DNA of 64,000 nucleotides from a virus (IMGVR_UViG_3300044530_000662:1-64000), one strand, 5' to 3'; numbered from the stretch's first letter, positions 56,801-62,888 are shown. Notes: generated by a model not told the origin, from the sequence alone. A program made the numbers and translations.

Positions 56801-59417
56801 ATGCCCAATCAGGTAATGTATAACTGTATCTACTTCCTGATGCAGCTACCCCTCCTACTGCAACAGCACCTGCCATATAACCTTCAAGTGTTGTATCAAT
56901 TACACTTAAAACTGGAGTACTGCCTGTATAGGCCATAGAAAAAGAATCAAGTAAAGCACCGCCCGATGTAAAATATCTTGTTAATGCATTATTGTAACCT
57001 AGAGCTGGTATAAGACTTGAAGGTAAAACGTAGGGACTTACAGTATATGCAGCATTTGCAATACTTGCACCAACAATTTGAGCAGCAAAACTGACATCTC
57101 CTCCTAAGCCGGGAGTTGTATACTCAGCAGAAGTAATATCTATTTTACCTCTCATAGATATAATAGCTTCAATAAGACCTCCTATTGAAATTACAGCAAC
57201 AACAAGATCACTTAGTAATTTATTCTGTGGATGTTTGTTTGGTTCAATATATCTTTGATTAGATTGTCCTCTCAAATAACCATAGAGTTTTAATTCTGTA
57301 GATGATAAGAAAGGAGTATTAAACATAGTATCCGGAGAATGGAAACTTACCATATCCATCGGAACTGCTTGATCTAATACATTGTTATTATTACTAGGAC
57401 TTGGTATTCTAATATAAGGATCCATAAAAGGTCTATCATGATTATTTCCAGACCCTGTATTAAAAAATGAGTTAATTGTATTAAATGGATAGTTAGCATA
57501 TAAGCCTGTAGTAGGGTTTGCTTGATTAACCACTTGACCTTGTATATTATATGTTCTAAAGTTATTCAACATACCTTTAGCAATAATAGACTTGTTCCCT
57601 TCTCGGGAACCTCTTAGTATTTCATAACCTACTATACCAGGAATATCATTACCTTCATTATCTTTTGGATAAGAAATGTTTTCAAAGTATACTCCCATTA
57701 ATCTAATCTTTAAAGGATTAGGTGTATAAGGAGGATTTGGTTTAAAATGATTAGTTACAGCATTAGGTGTAGTATCCGTCATGTTGTCTGGAAACTTATG
57801 ATGTCTTATGGCTTGTCCACATAAATCATATTTAGTACTTTTTTTACCAAATACTCCTGTCCAACATTGATCACTAGCATTCCATATGTCAGGTCTATCA
57901 TCAGGATATTTTTCACTAGATTCCCAATAAGCCATACGACCAACAGCAATAACAGTACCTCCATCATCAGTTACTGAACCTACTACAGGATTACCAATAG
58001 GATCAACACTTGCTGTATTATATACTTCAAATATTTTATCATCTGGAGTTAAAGAATTTACACCATTATCATCATCATTCTCATATGTTGGACTAGCTGA
58101 TGTTGGATATCTTTCAGCAGCTCTTCCTGGAATATGATAGGATGAAGATTTATCTCCTGTATCATATACCCATCTAATAAAATAACAGTATACTTCATCT
58201 CTTAAATAGCTTCCTTTATTACCACCTTTTACATAATAGTCTGCTGGATATTCTACGGAAGCCCACTTAGCTTGAATAAGATTAGCAAAAGGTTGATAAT
58301 TAAAATCAAATTTAGAAGTAGGACCTACTCTTAGCAAGTAACTGTTTACTTCAGCTATTTGATCACACTTTTCAAACACTGGAGTTTGTAATGGTAGAAA
58401 TTGTAATGGTACAGATAATAAATCTGTTATAATTTGATCTATTGCAATTCTACTAGTCTTAGTAGAATAGGTACCAATTTGTTTTGCTACTGTTCCTTGG
58501 TTAATATTCTGAACAATGACTAATTGAAATTCATCAAAGTTTTCAAAGTCTGCTTCTACATCTATTACCAAAGATCCTTGTAAATCATTTGGATACCAGA
58601 TTGGTTGTGAATTACTTGGAGAAAAATAATCTGTAACTCTTTGACCTTTAATACTATATGCAATAGTAGCAAAGTAAGTTCCGTTTCTTAATGTTCCTCC
58701 TTGATCTCCTAATCTTACTTTAAGACATGGTGTTGACATAAGTCTTGCAAGTCTTATTTTATCACAATTTAAACTAGAGTCAAAAGTAATATAATCACAT
58801 GAACCTCCAGGTTTTACAAATTCATTCCATGCAACACCAGGCCATAATATTCTATTGGTACCATCAGAATAATAATTTATAGTAGGTTGACCTAACCACA
58901 CATAAGGAGCTTTTGGCCATGTCTGTGGATCTCCTACATTTAAAAATCTATCTGGATTATTTGCATCAGCCCAATATACTTGCCAAGTACAATCTTCTTT
59001 TTCTCTTGCTGAACCAGATATAAGATATCTTTTATCAAATCCTAAACAAGCATCTTGAACAATAGGTCTATATGTACAGGTATCTGTTTCAAGTAAACCA
59101 ATTTCTGACATAACGCTACCACCTTTAATTCCGTGACCAGCTGTAAAGATTATCCATTTATCAGAAAATAATTGTATTGCACCTATGATGTATTTTTTTA
59201 CTACACTAATAGGCATTGTTGATCCTGCTGTAATACATAAAAAGTTTGCACTCTCATTTGATATTGTACCCAAGTCACCTTCTTCTGTATTGTTTACAAC
59301 ATTACGGGCATGAGTCCACATACCTTCTTGTATAAAGGTAGTGTCAGCATCTTTATTTAAACCTTTAGTAAAACTACGGTTGATAATTTGTGTTGTGTTT
59401 TGCATTCCTTTTGCCAT
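53892..59417 (-). CDS. Tail stabilisation/muzzle-type protein, 1841 aa
   Basis: N-terminal SFTKGLNKD...HARNVVN and C-terminal WTISY...WISYHDWHP; beta-rich; directly after ring proteins, as in crAss-like tail modules. Confidence 0.7.
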   Translation of the reverse strand: MAKGMQNTTQIINRSFTKGLNKDADTTFIQEGMWTHARNVVNNTEEGDLGTISNESANFLCITAGSTMPISVVKKYIIGAIQLFSDKWIIFTAGHGIKGGSVMSEIGLLETDTCTYRPIVQDACLGFDKRYLISGSAREKEDCTWQVYWADANNPDRFLNVGDPQTWPKAPYVWLGQPTINYYSDGTNRILWPGVAWNEFVKPGGSCDYITFDSSLNCDKIRLARLMSTPCLKVRLGDQGGTLRNGTYFATIAYSIKGQRVTDYFSPSNSQPIWYPNDLQGSLVIDVEADFENFDEFQLVIVQNINQGTVAKQIGTYSTKTSRIAIDQIITDLLSVPLQFLPLQTPVFEKCDQIAEVNSYLLRVGPTSKFDFNYQPFANLIQAKWASVEYPADYYVKGGNKGSYLRDEVYCYFIRWVYDTGDKSSSYHIPGRAAERYPTSASPTYENDDDNGVNSLTPDDKIFEVYNTASVDPIGNPVVGSVTDDGGTVIAVGRMAYWESSEKYPDDRPDIWNASDQCWTGVFGKKSTKYDLCGQAIRHHKFPDNMTDTTPNAVTNHFKPNPPYTPNPLKIRLMGVYFENISYPKDNEGNDIPGIVGYEILRGSREGNKSIIAKGMLNNFRTYNIQGQVVNQANPTTGLYANYPFNTINSFFNTGSGNNHDRPFMDPYIRIPSPSNNNNVLDQAVPMDMVSFHSPDTMFNTPFLSSTELKLYGYLRGQSNQRYIEPNKHPQNKLLSDLVVAVISIGGLIEAIISMRGKIDITSAEYTTPGLGGDVSFAAQIVGASIANAAYTVSPYVLPSSLIPALGYNNALTRYFTSGGALLDSFSMAYTGSTPVLSVIDTTLEGYMAGAVAVGGVAASGSRYSYTLPDWAYLDPFSRALGATNQLLFYFSEGARTTLTLIKAFIPEDQFALQMIAHGFYDDMRRNNAANGLFRFKIEDSFYIRGNIQQVPSYYKYNNALTSYSINNLNRSDTVVIRTKAGPNYAGPLYNNVIGPNYITEPTGVSYVDQSLTTLGRLNQNGIIKTDTLANITGSSLDIPTFTKTDTPFQAPIASHYAGMKIRLGNQYGQLQGVKQIVITPCEQKFSLGQLEDTPGASTKCAACNVDTKIKRIRQSPVFFGGDTFVNRYTEKNSMFFFYDWLFGQPDGFEFNYLLRQMIPQPRFWMNSKDYDVSDLAPDFANGNTTPGTGDLPTSFYNLDYYKNSSRYYSYSSDFPIGGYPGLFRAKNANFYLACSSVRDFFVESDVLVDFRIAGDYEWEKHYNPYNYTELTRMFDIDPQNITRGNTYRYDYSLSISKLFTEYFSSGALQSPYYNPAVAKLCYTYLPDTIYYSLPQQDQSFKDSWFVYLANNYREFKSQISGVKSINKSGLFITFKNDMPQMFQGVDTLNTALGTKITIGDGGLFSQPGQSVSNADKPYEYGSSQNRLSVVSTPAGLFYVSQNQGKIFSYGEGLKEISQIGLKWWFSLFLKYKLTQHFPNYEWQDNPVAGIGIQAVYDNENSILYFCKKDYDVKPELADRVEYIPFVKECYVNSNGAAVQKGTGDYFTLDGAGRYLIGDPKLFDSASWTISYDPKNEFWISYHDWHPDLVIPTKTVFLTTKMETIWKHNFNCQQYCNYYGVNYPFEIEFPIITGQTPTVVKSFEYILECYTRASNCVDQFHVLDFNFDNAVIYNSEQVSGYLNLNIFPKNNIVLSLNYPKFNPSIPMIFTNPVTGLPSVTGVPGFDILFSKEENKYRFNQFWDVTNNRGEFPVGAGYPPQGPLVPNTTVLLGNYVQQLIWNSKPDGYTRELNLVNIDYNKAQLQRKKFRHYTHFLSLRKEISGNVNMILKTVDSKNQYSPR

Positions 59418-60448
59418 TATCTCAAAGTTGTATTGCGTCCAAAATAACCATTATACCCTTGGTATGATTTAAACATATCATAATACTTAGAGTATTGTGC
59501 TCTTCTGTTTGTCCACCATAGTTTCTCCATCTCTTTAAAGTTTGGAGTATTAACTAGGCTAAGTGCTTGACTTCTAGCTGCTTTTAATCTTTGTTCAAGT
59601 AATGTCATTCTTTGAGCAACATCTTCACCATTTAGAAATAGGTTTTCCATGATTCTCATTTTTAATGCATACTCATAATATTCATTTAATAAATCATGAT
59701 CAGGAACTAAAAGCTGTCCTTGCTCATTCTCCATTAAACCTTGATAGTTAAGATATACTTTACCATCTTGAAATGTAGTAAACAAATATCCATTCTTAAT
59801 CCAACCTTCATTAGGTCCATTGTAATATAAGTTAGGACATTCACATTCTATTTCTTGACTAGCTTTTAATCTTAAAGGAATTAATCCAGTATATGTATAA
59901 TAGTTTGAATTAGTTATTACTTGGATTAGTTCATACTTGTCTCCTTTACAGTTCATAAAAACTCTTGGTGGAATACATGTATCACCATATGGATTATTTG
60001 GATCATATGATGTTGGTATTGGATCTACTATAGGGTGATTAAGATCACAACCTGCTGTATGATTACACGGATTAGCATTACATGTTCTACAGTTAACACT
60101 TATGGGAGCACAAGTATCAACAGTACTTGGAACTTCTACATAGGGTATCTCTTGTATATTAGTACCGCCCTGTGGGTATCCTGTATGTTGTGTATATTGA
60201 CCACACACCATTGCATAGTTAACTGTATAAAAATTATCAGGTAATTTTACTTTACCATGACATACATCAAGTACAGCTTCTTTTGTTTGATTAATTCTAA
60301 GACCTAAATCATAATTAAGTTTTTTTACAAGCTTAATTAATTGTTGAGGCTCAATCATATTTTCAAGAGCAAATGAATTTAGATCAACTGTTACATCTTC
60401 AAGTAACTGATCAAATGTACGGTATTTAAGTGTGTAGTTAAAATCCAT
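59417..60448 (-). CDS. Tail ring/tubular-type structural protein with Cys-rich insertion
   Basis: Position in tail module; GKVKLPDNF and VYLNY...LLVPDH...EYALK pattern. Confidence 0.55.
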   Translation of the reverse strand: MDFNYTLKYRTFDQLLEDVTVDLNSFALENMIEPQQLIKLVKKLNYDLGLRINQTKEAVLDVCHGKVKLPDNFYTVNYAMVCGQYTQHTGYPQGGTNIQEIPYVEVPSTVDTCAPISVNCRTCNANPCNHTAGCDLNHPIVDPIPTSYDPNNPYGDTCIPPRVFMNCKGDKYELIQVITNSNYYTYTGLIPLRLKASQEIECECPNLYYNGPNEGWIKNGYLFTTFQDGKVYLNYQGLMENEQGQLLVPDHDLLNEYYEYALKMRIMENLFLNGEDVAQRMTLLEQRLKAARSQALSLVNTPNFKEMEKLWWTNRRAQYSKYYDMFKSYQGYNGYFGRNTTLR

Positions 60449-61110
60449 TATCTAAGAGCATTTTGGCTGTCATCAGGACCATCACTTGGAACTGACATTG
60501 ACATTGTTAATTCTTTTACTACATATTGTTCTACTTCTGCAAACAAGTATTCAGGAATATTTAATATTTCATCTTGTTGAATCAAGCATGGTTCTGTATC
60601 ACATTTTACTGTATTGTTTTCAAAGATTGCTTCCATTCTTATTGCATCCCAATCAATATTAGGACAGTATACATATCCGTTAAGATACCAGAAGTAAGGT
60701 CTTGTGTTATACTTAAATGTTGTTGTTCTAGTCATGGATACCCAAGTGCCTGGATCAGTTCTAAACATTTCAATACTACCATCAATAGATGAAGTAGTTC
60801 TTATTATAGGACCAAACATACCATTAAGTATACTAGGTAATTTATCTTTAGATCTTTTGAAGTAACATTCTGAATAAACACCAACACATCCAGCTTCAAC
60901 TTTATCAACATCAATTAATTCTATGTAGGGAAGTACTTGAAATATCTGACTCATCTTCATTAACCTAAATTGATTATCCTCTCTCTTAATAAGAGTCTGA
61001 GAATATTTCATTAAAGAAAAGTAAATAGTCCTGTCAGTTAAAAAGGGATCCTCTTTAACAGCTTTTAAAGTATTTCTTACTCTTGATATTGCTTCACCTA
61101 TTGTTGTCAT
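60448..61110 (-). CDS. Structural (ring-type) protein
   Basis: MTTIGEAISRVRN..., YFKRSKDKLP, YFWYLNGY; coupled to neighbours. Confidence 0.55.
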   Translation of the reverse strand: MTTIGEAISRVRNTLKAVKEDPFLTDRTIYFSLMKYSQTLIKREDNQFRLMKMSQIFQVLPYIELIDVDKVEAGCVGVYSECYFKRSKDKLPSILNGMFGPIIRTTSSIDGSIEMFRTDPGTWVSMTRTTTFKYNTRPYFWYLNGYVYCPNIDWDAIRMEAIFENNTVKCDTEPCLIQQDEILNIPEYLFAEVEQYVVKELTMSMSVPSDGPDDSQNALR

Positions 61111-61688
61111 AAGTTAAATTCATTATATGTTGTCAAGGCTTCTGCCTGTTTTTTAAGGGCATAATGCTTCTTAAAGAAGTTTTGATATGTTATTCTTATT
61201 TTAGCATTAGGTTCAACTACCACATACATATTCCAATTTTCAGGATATGTTTTTGCTACAGCTCTTTTAAATTCTCTGCATGCTACAAATTTCCAATACT
61301 CCTTATTTTTCATTTTTATTTTAGGAGCATAATTTGTATAAAATATTTTAGCTAGTTTTCCATCAGTAGCCCAGTTATTATTTGATACAGCCATTCCGTA
61401 TGTATGAGATTTGGCAAAGTCTATATTCTTTTTCTTGCTTTGCTGACAAGTCCCTATAAATAACCAACCAATTGATTCTGGTAATTGCACACCATCTCTT
61501 GTATTAATAACTGTTTGATATACAGTTTGATTAAATAGTTTAGCTATTTGTTTCAATGTTGCATTATCAAAGTGTTTATACTTTGGATACCTATTTCTAA
61601 AATTTTCAAAGAACTCATTATTTAGAACATTATATACATCTGGTCTAAATCTTGGAGCTTTAACATCTGGTTTTTTAATTTCCTTCAT
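61107..61688 (-). CDS. IHF/HU-like DNA-binding protein
   Basis: Basic protein; helical N-terminus then DGVQLPESIGWLFIG, resembling the HU/IHF V.L.GFG.F strand; crAss-like tail modules carry such a gene. Confidence 0.55.
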   Translation of the reverse strand: MKEIKKPDVKAPRFRPDVYNVLNNEFFENFRNRYPKYKHFDNATLKQIAKLFNQTVYQTVINTRDGVQLPESIGWLFIGTCQQSKKKNIDFAKSHTYGMAVSNNNWATDGKLAKIFYTNYAPKIKMKNKEYWKFVACREFKRAVAKTYPENWNMYVVVEPNAKIRITYQNFFKKHYALKKQAEALTTYNEFNL

Positions 61689-61725
61689 GCTACTATATTA
61701 ATATACTAAAAATAAATGACTTTAA

Positions 61726-61756
61726 CAAATGTACATAAAAAACAAAACCCCCACAA
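61726..61756 (-). promoter_or_regulatory. Candidate Bacteroidota sigma-A promoter for the IHF-like gene
   Basis: Minus strand TTG-N20-TACATTTG, ending 38 nt before ATG 61688. Confidence 0.5.
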
Positions 61757-61770
61757 GTGTGAGGGCTTTG
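61737..61770 (-). terminator. Intrinsic terminator (minus strand)
   Basis: CAAAGCCCTCAC-ACTT-GTGGGGGTTTTG 12-bp stem with G-U pairs, then T6. Confidence 0.9.
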
Positions 61771-61778
61771 CCGTTGTT

Positions 61779-61930
61779 GTTACAGAAACCAACAAACCGT
61801 AACTTCTTTTAATACAGAATAATGTTATGGGCACGCCTATAATCAGGTATACACCTAGGTGCGTACTTATAATCAGGCAATCTCCTTGGAGATCAATTAT
61901 CATCAAGCACTACCCATAACATTATTGTGC
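61779..61930 (-). ncRNA. Candidate structured non-coding RNA with a 30-nt-period internal array
   Basis: 14-bp inverted repeat 61818-61831 / 61913-61926; three phased 10-nt motifs; two hairpins with CWAG loops; extra hairpin 61779-61803. Confidence 0.6.
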
Positions 61931-61937
61931 ATATTAG

Positions 61938-62888
61938 TTAATGATTAAAATGTTTAATATTAGTAGGATCATGATTTATTGCATATGAAACATAAGAAGG
62001 ACCACCAATAGTCAATCTAAACTTCACTATTTTACATTGAATACTTGCTGTTAATGGACCAAATATAATTGGATATTTTGAATTTGGATCTGGATTTTCA
62101 ATACCAATTGCAAATCTAAAATACACTGATCTGTTTGGACTATCTCTTTTTCTTCCTCTTACATAATATTTTGCTAACTGATCCCATAAAACTGTATTAT
62201 TAAATGGTGCTGGTAATGAGTCAGAAATGAGTGAACAAATATAAAATTCTCCTGGATTAAAATCAGTTAGTAATTGTCTTTCATAAGGTTCAGTTATTGT
62301 TAAAGGAAACTCTGAATGTGTAGGACATAATGTAGTTCCACTATAAAAATTACCGTTTGGAAAATTTATACCTTGCATGTGAGTAGTATGTTTCCATCCA
62401 CCATGGTAATACTTTTTTTGTGAATCATCATTAATATCACGCACTTTTCTATTCTTTCCATTTTTCTTTACAAAAAGATAAATCTTAGGATTATAGTCTA
62501 AGTATGCATTAGATTCAGTACCAGGTAATATTGAAGCATGCAATAACTTACCTGCTTGTGATTGTATAGTTAATTGTGGTATTTGAATACCAGAGCCTCC
62601 TGAATTATTACAAAAATAATCAACTATACTTTCTAAAGCTTCAGCTACTGTATCATTAGTATTTACAATAGGTCCTGCAGGTGCAGGATTAGGTTCAGGT
62701 GCAGCATTAAATGTTTGAGCTACTGTACATGATAAAGGTAATCCTGTATATCTTACACATTGTGCATCAAATATTTCAGAGCATGGTTGTGGAGTAGGAC
62801 ATCCTATTGGTGTAGGACATGGAGCAGGACTAACCATAAAGCTATCCTGACATCCGCATTTCTTACATGTATTATTTGTTGTTGTCAT
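61938..62888 (-). CDS. Cys/Pro-rich tail-associated structural protein
   Basis: CKKCGC...PCPTPIGCPTPQPCSEIFDAQCVRYTG N-terminus; beta-rich C-terminal domain. Confidence 0.6.
   Translation of the reverse strand: MTTTNNTCKKCGCQDSFMVSPAPCPTPIGCPTPQPCSEIFDAQCVRYTGLPLSCTVAQTFNAAPEPNPAPAGPIVNTNDTVAEALESIVDYFCNNSGGSGIQIPQLTIQSQAGKLLHASILPGTESNAYLDYNPKIYLFVKKNGKNRKVRDINDDSQKKYYHGGWKHTTHMQGINFPNGNFYSGTTLCPTHSEFPLTITEPYERQLLTDFNPGEFYICSLISDSLPAPFNNTVLWDQLAKYYVRGRKRDSPNRSVYFRFAIGIENPDPNSKYPIIFGPLTASIQCKIVKFRLTIGGPSYVSYAINHDPTNIKHFNH

What the first reader, a model, noticed from the sequence alone, without database searches (positions are those of the whole stretch)
61779..61930. Structured non-coding element: 30-nt-period mini-array of covarying hairpins inside a 14-bp closing stem
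Minus strand reads CTTGATGATA-attgatctcCAAGgagattg-CCTGATTATA-agtacgcacCTAGgtgtata-CCTGATTATA. The three 10-nt motifs are exactly 30 nt apart (plus-strand 61898-61907, 61868-61877, 61838-61847). The two 20-nt spacers differ in sequence but form the same hairpin: a CWAG loop closed by C-G, with compensatory T-A/A-T, T-A/G-T, G-T/A-T and T-G/T-A pairs. The array is enclosed by AATAATGTTATGGG / CCCATAACATTATT, which extends to 16 bp with a G-U pair only on the minus strand. A further hairpin (61779-61803) and a strong terminator follow. Conserved structure with different sequence argues for RNA. Hypotheses, all inference: a processed small RNA acting as a protein sponge; a mimic of type III antitoxin repeats or of CRISPR repeats (RNA anti-CRISPR); a box C/D-like RNA (it contains UGAUGA and CUGA); or phased DNA sites for the adjacent IHF-like protein. 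I do not recognise it as a known family.
Basis: partly seen in the sequence, partly recalled or inferred. Interest (0 to 1): 0.85.

Follow-up and report, generated by a model that had tools for sequence, protein, structure and literature searches.

The report
Threefold-symmetric RNA tied to phage gene
A ~120-nt RNA that folds into a three-armed junction with three near-identical repeat units sits right after the stop codon of one uncharacterised, strongly basic phage protein, and the same design follows that protein's relatives in every phage examined, so the two probably form a new RNA-protein module.

Summary
On the minus strand, window 61812-61932 folds into a long closing stem (P1), two hairpins and three A/U-rich linkers with a 30-nt period.

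It is not part of the crAss-like backbone. 79 of 80 relatives fetched through the downstream gene lack it. It travels with the upstream gene: all 22 or so distinct loci that encode a homologue (23-100% identity) of that protein's C-terminal domain carry such an element 1-25 nt after the stop codon, next to at least five different downstream genes.

Covariation is strong: 90% of cells pair against 32-49% in slid controls, and 23 of 40 pairs change on both sides. There are 52 G-U pairs against 9 A-C mismatches, which points to sense-strand RNA.

Distant members share no sequence, only the design: three units of about 30 nt. P1 is the third, opened arm, so the element is a pseudo-threefold three-way junction. 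Two close relatives differ at 5 of 116 nt: the same junction base in all three strands, plus one compensatory pair.

No Rfam, Pfam or PDB family matches the RNA or the protein. The protein domain is basic (median pI 9.5).

Best reading (about 0.4): the RNA offers three equivalent sites to the protein encoded upstream. The box C/D, CRISPR-mimic and IHF-site ideas are not supported. Transcription was not shown.

The parts
61812..61932 (-). Whole structured element (pseudo-threefold three-way junction), starting 6 nt after the TAA stop at 61938-61940
   Evidence: Covariance model R1 scores 121.8 bits on the minus strand and 45.7 on the plus strand. There is a single copy in the 117-kb genome.
61928..61932 (-). 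P1 outer helix, 5' strand (AUGCA). It pairs with 61812-61816 (UGUAU, including one G-U). C61927 and C61817 form an invariant C.C mismatch.
   Evidence: pairs 4-8/125-129: CG to UA in 3 of 10 sequences, and GU/AU/GC at pair 6/127. The C.C columns are invariant.
61913..61926 (-). P1 core, 5' strand AAUAAUGUUAUGGG. It pairs with 61818-61831 (CCCAUAACAUUAUU).
   Evidence: 10 of the 14 pairs are invariant in the subfamily. Pair 19/114 switches GC to AU. The distant members L099 and L248 show UA and a compensatory AGUGUU/AACACU.
61905..61912 (-). P1 inner extension (P1b), 5' strand UAGUGCUU with a bulged G. It pairs with 61832-61838 (AGGCGUG). U61912.G61832 is the conserved wobble of the third arm.
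   Evidence: pair 24/109 is U-G in 8 of 10, and pairs 25/108, 26/107, 29/105 and 31/103 each change on both sides in 4-5 of 10. RNAalifold predicts it independently.
61896..61904 (-). Junction strand J1 (GAUGAUAAU), first copy of the repeated linker
61878..61895 (-). Hairpin H1 (UGAUCUC-CAAG-GAGAUUG)
   Evidence: helix 2: 6 of 7 pairs change on both sides; 87% of cells pair.
61867..61877 (-). Junction strand J2 (CCUGAUUAUAA)
61847..61866 (-). Hairpin H2 (GUACGCAC-CUAG-GUGUAUAC), with a conserved G.U (G61862.U61851) and one C.A mismatch
   Evidence: helix 3: pair 77/88 is G-U in 9 of 10, pair 78/87 is C-G in 9 of 10, and 6 of 8 pairs change on both sides.
61839..61846 (-). Junction strand J3 (CUGAUUAU)
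61938..62888 (-). Partner gene, 316 aa. It has an N-terminal Cys-rich adaptor (about residues 1-93) and a basic C-terminal domain (95-316) with which the element always co-occurs.
61726..61803 (-). NOT part of the element. This is the backbone hairpin (61779-61803), the intrinsic terminator (about 61735-61766) and a TTTG/TAnnTTTG promoter-like motif (TACATTTG at 61726-61733) in front of the 193-aa gene.
   Evidence: present and nearly invariant in all 80 relatives; leader/terminator-like Rfam sub-threshold hits only.

Best explanation
The element is transcribed as the 3' untranslated end of the 316-aa gene. It folds into a three-way junction built from three ~30-nt units. Each unit is a U-rich junction strand (core AUUAU) followed by an arm that carries a G.U-C-G box (GCNC...GNGU). 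Two arms are capped hairpins. The third arm is opened and extended into the long closing stem P1. The RNA therefore offers three equivalent sites around a pseudo-threefold axis. I propose that these sites are bound by three copies (three monomers or a trimer) of the basic C-terminal domain encoded immediately upstream, probably in cis as the protein leaves the ribosome, which terminates 1-25 nt from the base of P1. The complex would then control how much free protein is available or how it assembles, and it would cap the mRNA 3' end. What is shown: the structure, its strand, the threefold repeat design, and the strict gene-RNA linkage. What is inferred: transcription, binding to this protein, the 3:1 stoichiometry and the physiological role.
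For: 1. Linkage. All homologues of residues 95-316 that have DNA after the stop carry the element: 12 distinct metagenomic loci at 37-100% identity and about 10 more distinct viral loci at 23-36% identity. The downstream neighbours differ. There are no counter-examples. 79 of 80 crAss-like relatives have the same N-terminal adaptor and backbone but another C-terminus, and they lack the element. The genome holds one gene and one element.
2. RNA structure. 90% of cells pair against 32-49% when slid, 23 of 40 pairs change on both sides, and 0/500 shuffles reach the score. RNAalifold agrees. There are 52 G-U against 9 A-C cells, which gives 90% pairing on the sense strand and 79% on the antisense strand. 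The covariance model scores 99-125 bits on the sense strand and 30-57 on the antisense strand.
3. Threefold design. A phased triple of 10-mers with a period of 28-31 nt is found in 12 of 19 elements at 0/60 shuffles, including members with unrelated sequence. In the window's subfamily the three units align in register as UUAU-N6-GC(N)C...G(N)GU, with the inner end of P1 as the third arm. In the L283 clade all three arms are 5 bp, a G.G mismatch and 4-5 bp, each with a junction-proximal G.U of the same polarity, and the junction strand is GAAGG three times.
4. Selection for identical strands. L283 and L286 differ at 5 of 116 nt. Three of these are columns 26, 55 and 84, a G-to-A change at the homologous junction base in all three strands. 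The other two are one compensatory pair.
5. Partner properties. The C-domain has a median net charge of +9 and a median pI of 9.5 over 57 homologues. The 26 other ORFs of the window of 150 aa or more have a median pI of 5.5. His167 and Glu193 are invariant and His170 is nearly so.
6. The junction strands differ between subfamilies, as expected if the partner co-evolves and is encoded nearby. The gene is the only constant neighbour.
Against: No experiment or read data show that the RNA accumulates or that it binds anything. The protein's context (tail-module neighbours, an N-terminal adaptor that is shared with many alternative C-termini) looks like a virion appendage, and no RNA partner is known for such proteins. 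In the closest clade (W, L237, L238; 90-94% protein identity) the three linkers have drifted apart, so strict identity of the strands is not required. Linker identity within an element is only moderately above that between clades (0.55 against 0.42). Identical strands could also arise from base triples within an RNA-only symmetric fold, or from repeat homogenisation. The AF2 model is an FN3/Ig-like sandwich with a large insertion, which is not a recognised RNA-binding fold.
Confidence: 0.4

Rival explanations
1. The element is a protein-independent 3'-UTR element. A very stable, compact three-way junction at the mRNA 3' end would block 3'-to-5' exonucleases or serve as a processing site (RNase III in the 25-28-bp P1, RNase E/G-type cuts in the AU-rich linkers). 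It would set the half-life of this gene's message and uncouple it from downstream genes. The threefold identity of the strands would reflect RNA-RNA contacts around the junction axis.
For: The element always lies at the very end of the ORF. In L285, L288/L292 and L282 the closing stem is directly followed by a U-tract, so there it can double as the terminator hairpin. Hairpin loops are not conserved across subfamilies and are often plain stable UUCG or UACG caps. P1 of the window's subfamily is long enough for RNase III (enzyme requirement from general knowledge). The concerted G-to-A change could equally be a base triple changing from G.G.G to A.A.A.
Against: A stability hairpin needs neither a conserved 30-nt period nor three matched arms with G.U or G.G boxes, and it need not be restricted to one protein domain family. 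Genes at the same locus with other C-termini do without it. In the window, L099/L248, L283 and L293 a separate terminator follows. The P1 sequence is nearly invariant over 14 bp in the subfamily, which is more than pairing alone requires.
Confidence: 0.25
2. The gene and the RNA form a type-III-like toxin-antitoxin or abortive-infection-style pair. The basic His/His/Glu domain would be an endoribonuclease that cuts the three identical linkers and is then held inactive by the ~30-nt hairpin units, as a single-chain, gene-order-swapped analogue of the triangular ToxIN 3:3 complex. Alternatively the RNA would be a decoy against a host type III toxin.
For: There are repeat units of about 30 nt with subfamily-specific sequence next to a small basic protein. 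ToxIN is a heterohexameric triangle of three ToxN and three 36-nt ToxI units, and one swapped-order locus has been reported (PMC3401426). The His, His and Glu residues are invariant or nearly so. In L099 and L248 the pair stands as a separate unit with its own terminator, away from a clear tail module.
Against: The layout criteria of PMC3401426 (repeats, then terminator, then toxin) are not met. ToxN, CptN, TenpN and AbiQ families were not detected by Pfam, PADLOC or NCBIfam. The unit number is fixed at three and the array is closed by a stem, unlike free tandem arrays. The gene carries a virion-adaptor-like N-terminus and sits among tail genes in crAss-like phages. Only a weak partial match was found in 1 of 401 Bacteroidota genomes sampled, so it is not a common bacterial defence gene.
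Confidence: 0.12
3. The element acts at the DNA level. Three phased direct repeats inside an inverted repeat would act as iterons, as a recombination or cassette-exchange site (attC-like, as single-stranded DNA), or as an invertible segment that moves the C-terminal domain cassette between phages.
For: The element marks the 3' boundary of the exchangeable cassette. Homology to the crAss backbone resumes within 10 nt of the end of P1. The 30-bp spacing is close to three helical turns. Folded single-stranded DNA would also tolerate G.T pairs.
Against: Stems vary freely while keeping their pairing, with 52 G-U against 9 A-C cells. That pattern fits a folded single strand, not duplex protein sites. 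The orientation relative to the gene is the same in every locus, so no inversion is seen. No tyrosine recombinase, serine recombinase or reverse transcriptase is encoded in the 99%-complete genome. The GTT...AAC order is the reverse of attC R''/R' (read directly from the sequence; attC consensus from general knowledge).
Confidence: 0.05
4. The element mimics a known guide or repeat RNA: a CRISPR repeat (an RNA anti-CRISPR) or a box C/D k-turn RNA.
For: GUUGUG...CACAAC ends resemble the termini of some Bacteroidota CRISPR repeats (recalled from memory, a lead only). UGAUGA and CUGA are present in the window's linkers.
Against: There is no CRISPR-DR or C/D family hit near threshold. The boxes are absent from other subfamilies. 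No CRISPR array carrying the commonest hairpin at a 56-81-nt period was found in 185,579 genomes; the 24 hits are coding or other tandem repeats. The element is far longer than a single repeat.
Confidence: 0.03

Closest known systems
Type III toxin-antitoxin RNA arrays (ToxI/ToxN, CptIN, TenpIN)
   Same: Short tandem RNA units (about 30-45 nt) are encoded next to a small protein, with family-specific repeat sequence. ToxIN assembles with threefold symmetry, three proteins and three RNA units (PMC3401426).
   Different: Here the RNA lies downstream of the gene, with no terminator between them. The unit number is fixed at three, and the array is closed by a stem into one three-way junction. The protein is an FN3/Ig-like sandwich with no detectable ToxN, CptN or TenpN signature. 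The gene has a virion-adaptor N-terminus and is found in phages.
Phage 3'-end and intergenic processing hairpins (T7 RNase III sites, lambda sib retroregulator)
   Same: They are structured RNAs directly after a phage ORF, with a long irregular duplex containing mismatches, and could set the stability of the upstream message (general knowledge).
   Different: Those are single irregular hairpins. None has three matched arms, a 30-nt period or an obligate link to one protein family.
phi29 pRNA three-way junction
   Same: It is a phage-encoded RNA of about 120 nt whose core is a stable three-way junction and which works bound to a symmetric protein assembly (general knowledge).
   Different: pRNA is a separate gene, its junction is not internally repeated, and it multimerises on the portal. 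No sequence or Rfam relation was found.
Integron attC sites
   Same: They are folded, imperfectly palindromic elements attached to the 3' end of a mobile gene cassette. Structure rather than sequence is conserved, and function is strand-specific (general knowledge).
   Different: attC acts as single-stranded DNA with an IntI integrase. Here no recombinase is encoded, the box order is reversed, and the interior is a threefold repeat.

Membership tests
Any Rfam 15 family | A score at or above the family's gathering threshold | tested here: not met
   There were 0 hits in the whole window and 0 in 15 related loci. The best sub-threshold hits on the element itself are snoRNA models at 11.6-22.6 bits against thresholds of 45-70.
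Type III toxin-antitoxin | A tandem array of direct RNA repeats | tested here: met
   There are three units with a period of 28-31 nt. However, they are closed into a junction by a stem.
Type III toxin-antitoxin | Locus order: repeats, then terminator, then toxin gene (criteria of PMC3401426) | tested here: not met
   The RNA starts 1-25 nt after the stop codon of the gene in all loci, with no terminator in between.
Type III toxin-antitoxin | The protein belongs to the ToxN/AbiQ, CptN or TenpN endoribonuclease families | tested here: inconclusive
   There are no Pfam, PADLOC or NCBIfam hits at the E-value cut-offs used (0.01 for Pfam, 1 for PADLOC and NCBIfam) and no PDB sequence homologue. 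Fold searches list only FN3/Ig-like sandwiches at Z of 5.7 or less, and an unlisted fold is not excluded.
Type III toxin-antitoxin | Toxicity of the protein and its neutralisation by the RNA | not testable with these tools
   This needs expression assays.
Box C/D RNA | A C box (RUGAUGA) and a D box (CUGA) abutting a terminal stem to form a k-turn, conserved among homologues | tested here: not met
   In the window CUGA is separated from the stem by 5 nt. The boxes are absent in L242, L093, L239, L241, L096, L002 and all distant members.
RNA anti-CRISPR / solitary CRISPR repeat | Close similarity to a CRISPR repeat of the host | tested here: inconclusive
   There is no CRISPR-DR hit on the element. 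No CRISPR array containing the commonest hairpin was found in 185,579 species genomes. The host is unknown and only one motif was scanned.
Intrinsic terminator | A G+C-rich stem immediately followed by a U-tract | tested here: not met
   In the window P1 is AU-rich at its base and is followed by UAAAAGAAG. A separate terminator lies 46 nt further on. In L282, L285 and L288 a U-tract does follow P1.
Integron attC | R''(RYYYAAC)...R'(GTTRRRY) box order, and an integron integrase in the element | tested here: not met
   The arms read GTT...AAC, which is the reverse order. The 99%-complete genome has no Phage_integrase or Resolvase match.
DGR target hairpin / retron ncRNA | A reverse transcriptase encoded in the same element | tested here: not met
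   There is no RVT_1 match in the genome.

The most novel reading that the evidence does not exclude
A new class of phage RNA-protein module. A single-chain RNA with internal threefold pseudo-symmetry binds three copies of an uncharacterised basic domain encoded just upstream. It would act either as an RNA scaffold or chaperone that controls assembly of a trimeric virion appendage, or as a closed, single-chain counterpart of the triangular type III toxin-antitoxin complexes.
Probability: 0.35. Interest if true: 0.9.

Novelty: categorically new. Interest (0 to 1): 0.82.

Why it matters
Natural RNAs with internal threefold pseudo-symmetry are, to my knowledge, not described. Neither is a structured RNA that is inherited as a unit with one protein domain across phages whose copies share no RNA sequence. 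If the RNA binds the protein, this is a new way for a phage to regulate, scaffold or neutralise a protein with its own 3' UTR. It would also be a compact natural three-way-junction scaffold with three programmable sites. Even if it is RNA-only, it defines a new RNA family (at least about 22 distinct members here) and a new protein domain family (hundreds of representative clusters matched the profile, though many match only the N-terminal adaptor). The strict linkage makes the function directly testable. It also gives a recognisable marker for one exchangeable C-terminal cassette in appendage-like genes of phages that are probably Bacteroidota-infecting (crAss-like and others).

Tried and rejected
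1. RNA evidence. Four metatranscriptome contig sets (X15, X18, X19, X20) cover only the conserved terminator and the 193-aa gene of relatives (61600-61820) and nothing of the element. They are contigs of other strains, so this says nothing either way.

2. Complex prediction with three copies of the C-domain gave 'no answer'. It is neither support nor evidence against a trimer.

3. My first viral pattern scan used a gap that was too long and found nothing. The corrected palindromic pattern returned mostly chance palindromes in metagenomes. Only L183 was real there, and only L221 (the same contig as L002) among the 17 viral hits.

4. The genome-wide scan for CRISPR-like arrays of GCTCCAAGGAG gave 24 hits, none a CRISPR array.

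5. Fold searches of a first, poor full-length model (pLDDT 65) and of the good domain model (pLDDT 91.6) gave only generic FN3/Ig-like matches (Z of 5.8 or less, Foldseek E of 0.01 or more). Atlas leads (DUF2793, CBM_4_9, PTR) scored 0.82 or less and are not usable.

6. Other readings I considered and dropped:
- Hammerhead or other small ribozyme: the linker lengths and the core do not fit, and Rfam is silent.
- Recoding signal: all three frames close within a few codons after the stop.
- Small ORF 61706-61906: not conserved, and the substitution pattern is one of pairing, not coding.
- Pseudoknots between linkers and loops: not consistent across members.
- IHF consensus in the linkers: does not fit.

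7. Literature searches found no description of such an element.

8. The covariance model found no further copy in the genome. One hit at 93241-93357 had E 0.9 and was not followed up.

Full report
**What is in the window.** The window belongs to a 117,285-bp virus record that is 99% complete by CheckV and has 31% G+C. It carries crAss-like tail ring proteins 1 and 2 at 59417-61110 on the minus strand. The finding lies between the stop codon of a 316-aa ORF (61938-62888, minus strand) and a 193-aa ORF (61107-61688, minus strand).
- The three 10-mers lie at 61898, 61868 and 61838.
- The two hairpins have CAAG and CUAG loops.
- The 14-bp stem continues outward past a C.C mismatch for five more pairs.

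The element alone folds with z = -6.0. The minus strand folds far better than the plus strand (-71.2 against -51.0 kcal/mol). Rfam gives nothing at gathering level, and only chance-level snoRNA or leader hits at relaxed thresholds. No tRNA was found.

**The element is not part of the backbone.** I fetched 80 viral contigs that encode the 193-aa protein at 56-86% identity. In all of them the region in front of that gene holds a nearly invariant hairpin, an intrinsic terminator and a TTTG...TAnnTTTG promoter-like motif. That motif is the Bacteroidota sigma-A consensus, from general knowledge. In the window this backbone lies at 61726-61803. In 79 of the 80 nothing else is there. Only L002 has an insert, and that insert has the same layout but very different sequence, while the flank is essentially identical. 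A covariance model of the element finds no copy in those 79 loci.

**The element travels with the upstream gene.** Homologues of residues 95-316 of the 316-aa protein (17 clusters, 37-100% identity) were traced to their contigs. Every contig with DNA beyond the stop codon carries the element. These are L237, L238, L002/L098, L093/L094/L183, L242-244, L239, L240, L241, L096/L097 and L099. Two contigs that end early (L092, L095) begin it. The genes that follow differ:
- the crAss 193-aa gene
- a protein of 1,893-1,965 aa
- a 163-aa gene
- a 218-aa gene
- small early-type genes

A profile search then showed that the protein is modular. An N-terminal Cys-rich adaptor is combined in other proteins with many other C-termini. 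The C-terminal domain of about 220 aa has invariant His167 and Glu193 and nearly invariant His170. Viral loci that encode distant copies of that domain (23-36% identity to the window's protein; L248-250 and L279-L298) again all carry, 1-25 nt after the stop, a closing stem enclosing two hairpins and three similar linkers. There the sequences are unrelated. The model built only from the window's subfamily still detects L281, L282 and L279 on the sense strand at E 1e-9 to 3e-6. I found no counter-example. The genome has one gene and one element. The domain is essentially absent from 401 sampled Bacteroidota genomes, with one weak partial match.

**It is a folded single strand of the sense polarity.** I aligned ten elements of the window's subfamily, each 126-130 nt with flanks and counted how a hand-written structure fares on that alignment:
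- 90% of cells pair, against 32-49% when the partners are slid.
- 23 of 40 pairs change on both sides.
- The covariation score is 0.477, against 0.133 or less for the slid controls.
- No shuffle of 500 reaches the observed score.

RNAalifold independently recovers P1 with its inner extension, H1 and the apex of H2. There are 52 G-U cells against 9 A-C cells, so the same pairs would be 90% intact on the sense strand and 79% on the antisense strand. Two wobbles are themselves conserved: G-U at pair 77/88 in 9 of 10 sequences and U-G at pair 24/109 in 8 of 10. Model scores are 99-125 bits on the sense strand and 30-57 on the antisense strand. The interior length is held at 80-84 nt in ten elements. 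L240 has an insertion of about 90 nt, and L099 and L248 have one of about 160 nt in place of or beside H1.

**The design is threefold.**
- A phased triple of 10-mers with a period of 28-31 nt recurs across subfamilies. It beats all 60 shuffles in 12 of 19 elements, and in L282 the three copies are identical.
- In the window's subfamily the three units align in register as ...U..UUAU-N6-GC(N)C, pairing with G(N)GU. The third unit is the 3' strand of P1, and its partner is the 5' strand (GCCC...GGGU). P1 is therefore simply the third arm, opened and extended.
- The same GCCC/GGGU or GCNN/NNGU box occurs in the arms of L279-L282.
- In the clade L283/L286/L287/L290 the symmetry is nearly perfect. 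Each arm has 5 bp, a G.G mismatch and 4-5 bp. Each arm starts with a G.U of the same polarity. The junction strands read GAAGG three times. Pairing is 98%, against 32-60% for the slid controls.
- L283 and L286 differ at only five of 116 positions. Three of them are columns 26, 55 and 84, a G-to-A change at the homologous junction base of all three strands, 29 nt apart. The other two are columns 33 and 52, one compensatory pair.

This last pattern is hard to explain without selection that keeps the three strands alike.

**The protein.**
- No Pfam, PHROG, PADLOC or NCBIfam family matches, and there is no PDB sequence relative.
- With a 57-row alignment the domain folds confidently (pLDDT 91.6) as an FN3/Ig-like sandwich with a large conserved insertion.
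- The best structural matches are generic, with Z of 5.7 or less.
- The domain is basic throughout the family, with a median net charge of +9 and a median pI of 9.5. Other ORFs of the window have a median pI of 5.5.

**Interpretation.** Two things are shown: a conserved, sense-strand, pseudo-threefold three-way junction, and its strict inheritance with one basic protein domain. The rest is inferred, as follows. The only constant neighbour is the gene, and the junction strands are specific to each subfamily. The most economical partner is therefore the protein itself, with three copies on three equivalent sites. The stop codon lies so close to P1 that a terminating ribosome must open its base (general knowledge of ribosome footprints). 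This would place the nascent C-domain next to the refolding RNA. I put this reading at about 0.4. The rivals are:
- A protein-independent stability or processing element, 0.25. Three subfamilies use P1 followed by a U-tract as a likely terminator.
- A type-III-TA-like toxin-antidote pair, 0.12.
- A DNA-level site, 0.05. The genome encodes no recombinase or reverse transcriptase, and the orientation is constant.
- A CRISPR or box C/D mimic, 0.03.

**Comparison with known systems.** The nearest analogy is type III toxin-antitoxin RNA, where ToxIN forms a 3:3 triangle (PMC3401426). This locus fails that family's layout criteria and shows no ToxN-like signature. T7 and lambda RNase III hairpins, phi29 pRNA and integron attC each share one feature and lack the others. 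I found no description of this element in the literature I searched. The comparative data here bear that out and extend it.

**Limits.**
- Transcription was not demonstrated. The RNA-library contigs cover only the neighbouring conserved region.
- The trimer prediction gave no verdict.
- The survey covers about 22 distinct loci, not the whole family.
- The host is unknown. Bacteroidota is inferred from the crAss-like genes and the promoter-like motifs.

Noticed in passing
window 61726-61803 (- strand); L003-L081 upstream of the 193-aa gene: The hairpin GTTACGG...CTGTAAC, the terminator and a TTTG/TAnnTTTG promoter-like motif are nearly invariant across 80 crAss-like relatives. They are more conserved than the flanking proteins (56-86% identity). 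RNA-library contigs of relatives cover this stretch.
   Followed up: partly
window 62609-62888 (- strand; residues 1-93 of the 316-aa ORF); L003-L091: A Cys-rich N-terminal module (CxxCGC...CPTPxxCPxPxPC...C..YTG) is shared by proteins of 81-958 aa at this locus, and by hundreds of representative clusters with unrelated C-termini. It looks like an adaptor for exchangeable appendage or receptor-binding domains.
   Followed up: partly
L099:2312-2555 and L248:2160-2390: In the most distant members that keep the P1 sequence, hairpin 1 is replaced by or joined to an insert of about 160 nt with its own G+C-rich helices. No Rfam match was found. It may be an extra structured domain.
   Followed up: partly
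L240:2264-2464: An A-rich insertion of about 90 nt with an extra hairpin lies between P1 and hairpin 1 of an otherwise standard element.
   Followed up: no
window 61107-61688 (- strand): The 193-aa protein downstream is very basic (net +18, pI 9.8), is conserved in all 80 relatives and has no Pfam or PHROG family.
   Followed up: partly
G000:C1:93241-93357 (- strand), outside the window: A weak covariance-model hit to the element (15.2 bits, E 0.9). It is probably chance.
   Followed up: no
L002, L242, L281, L293: Where the two hairpins are near-identical, the minimum-free-energy fold pairs them with each other into a rod instead of a three-way junction. An alternative conformation is therefore possible in some members, but not in the window, whose hairpins differ.
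   Followed up: no
L300 = G195:C11:48466-48813: This was the only match to the C-domain profile in 401 sampled Bacteroidota genomes. It is a weak partial hit (E 7e-7, profile positions 42-143) inside a 721-aa ORF.
   Followed up: no
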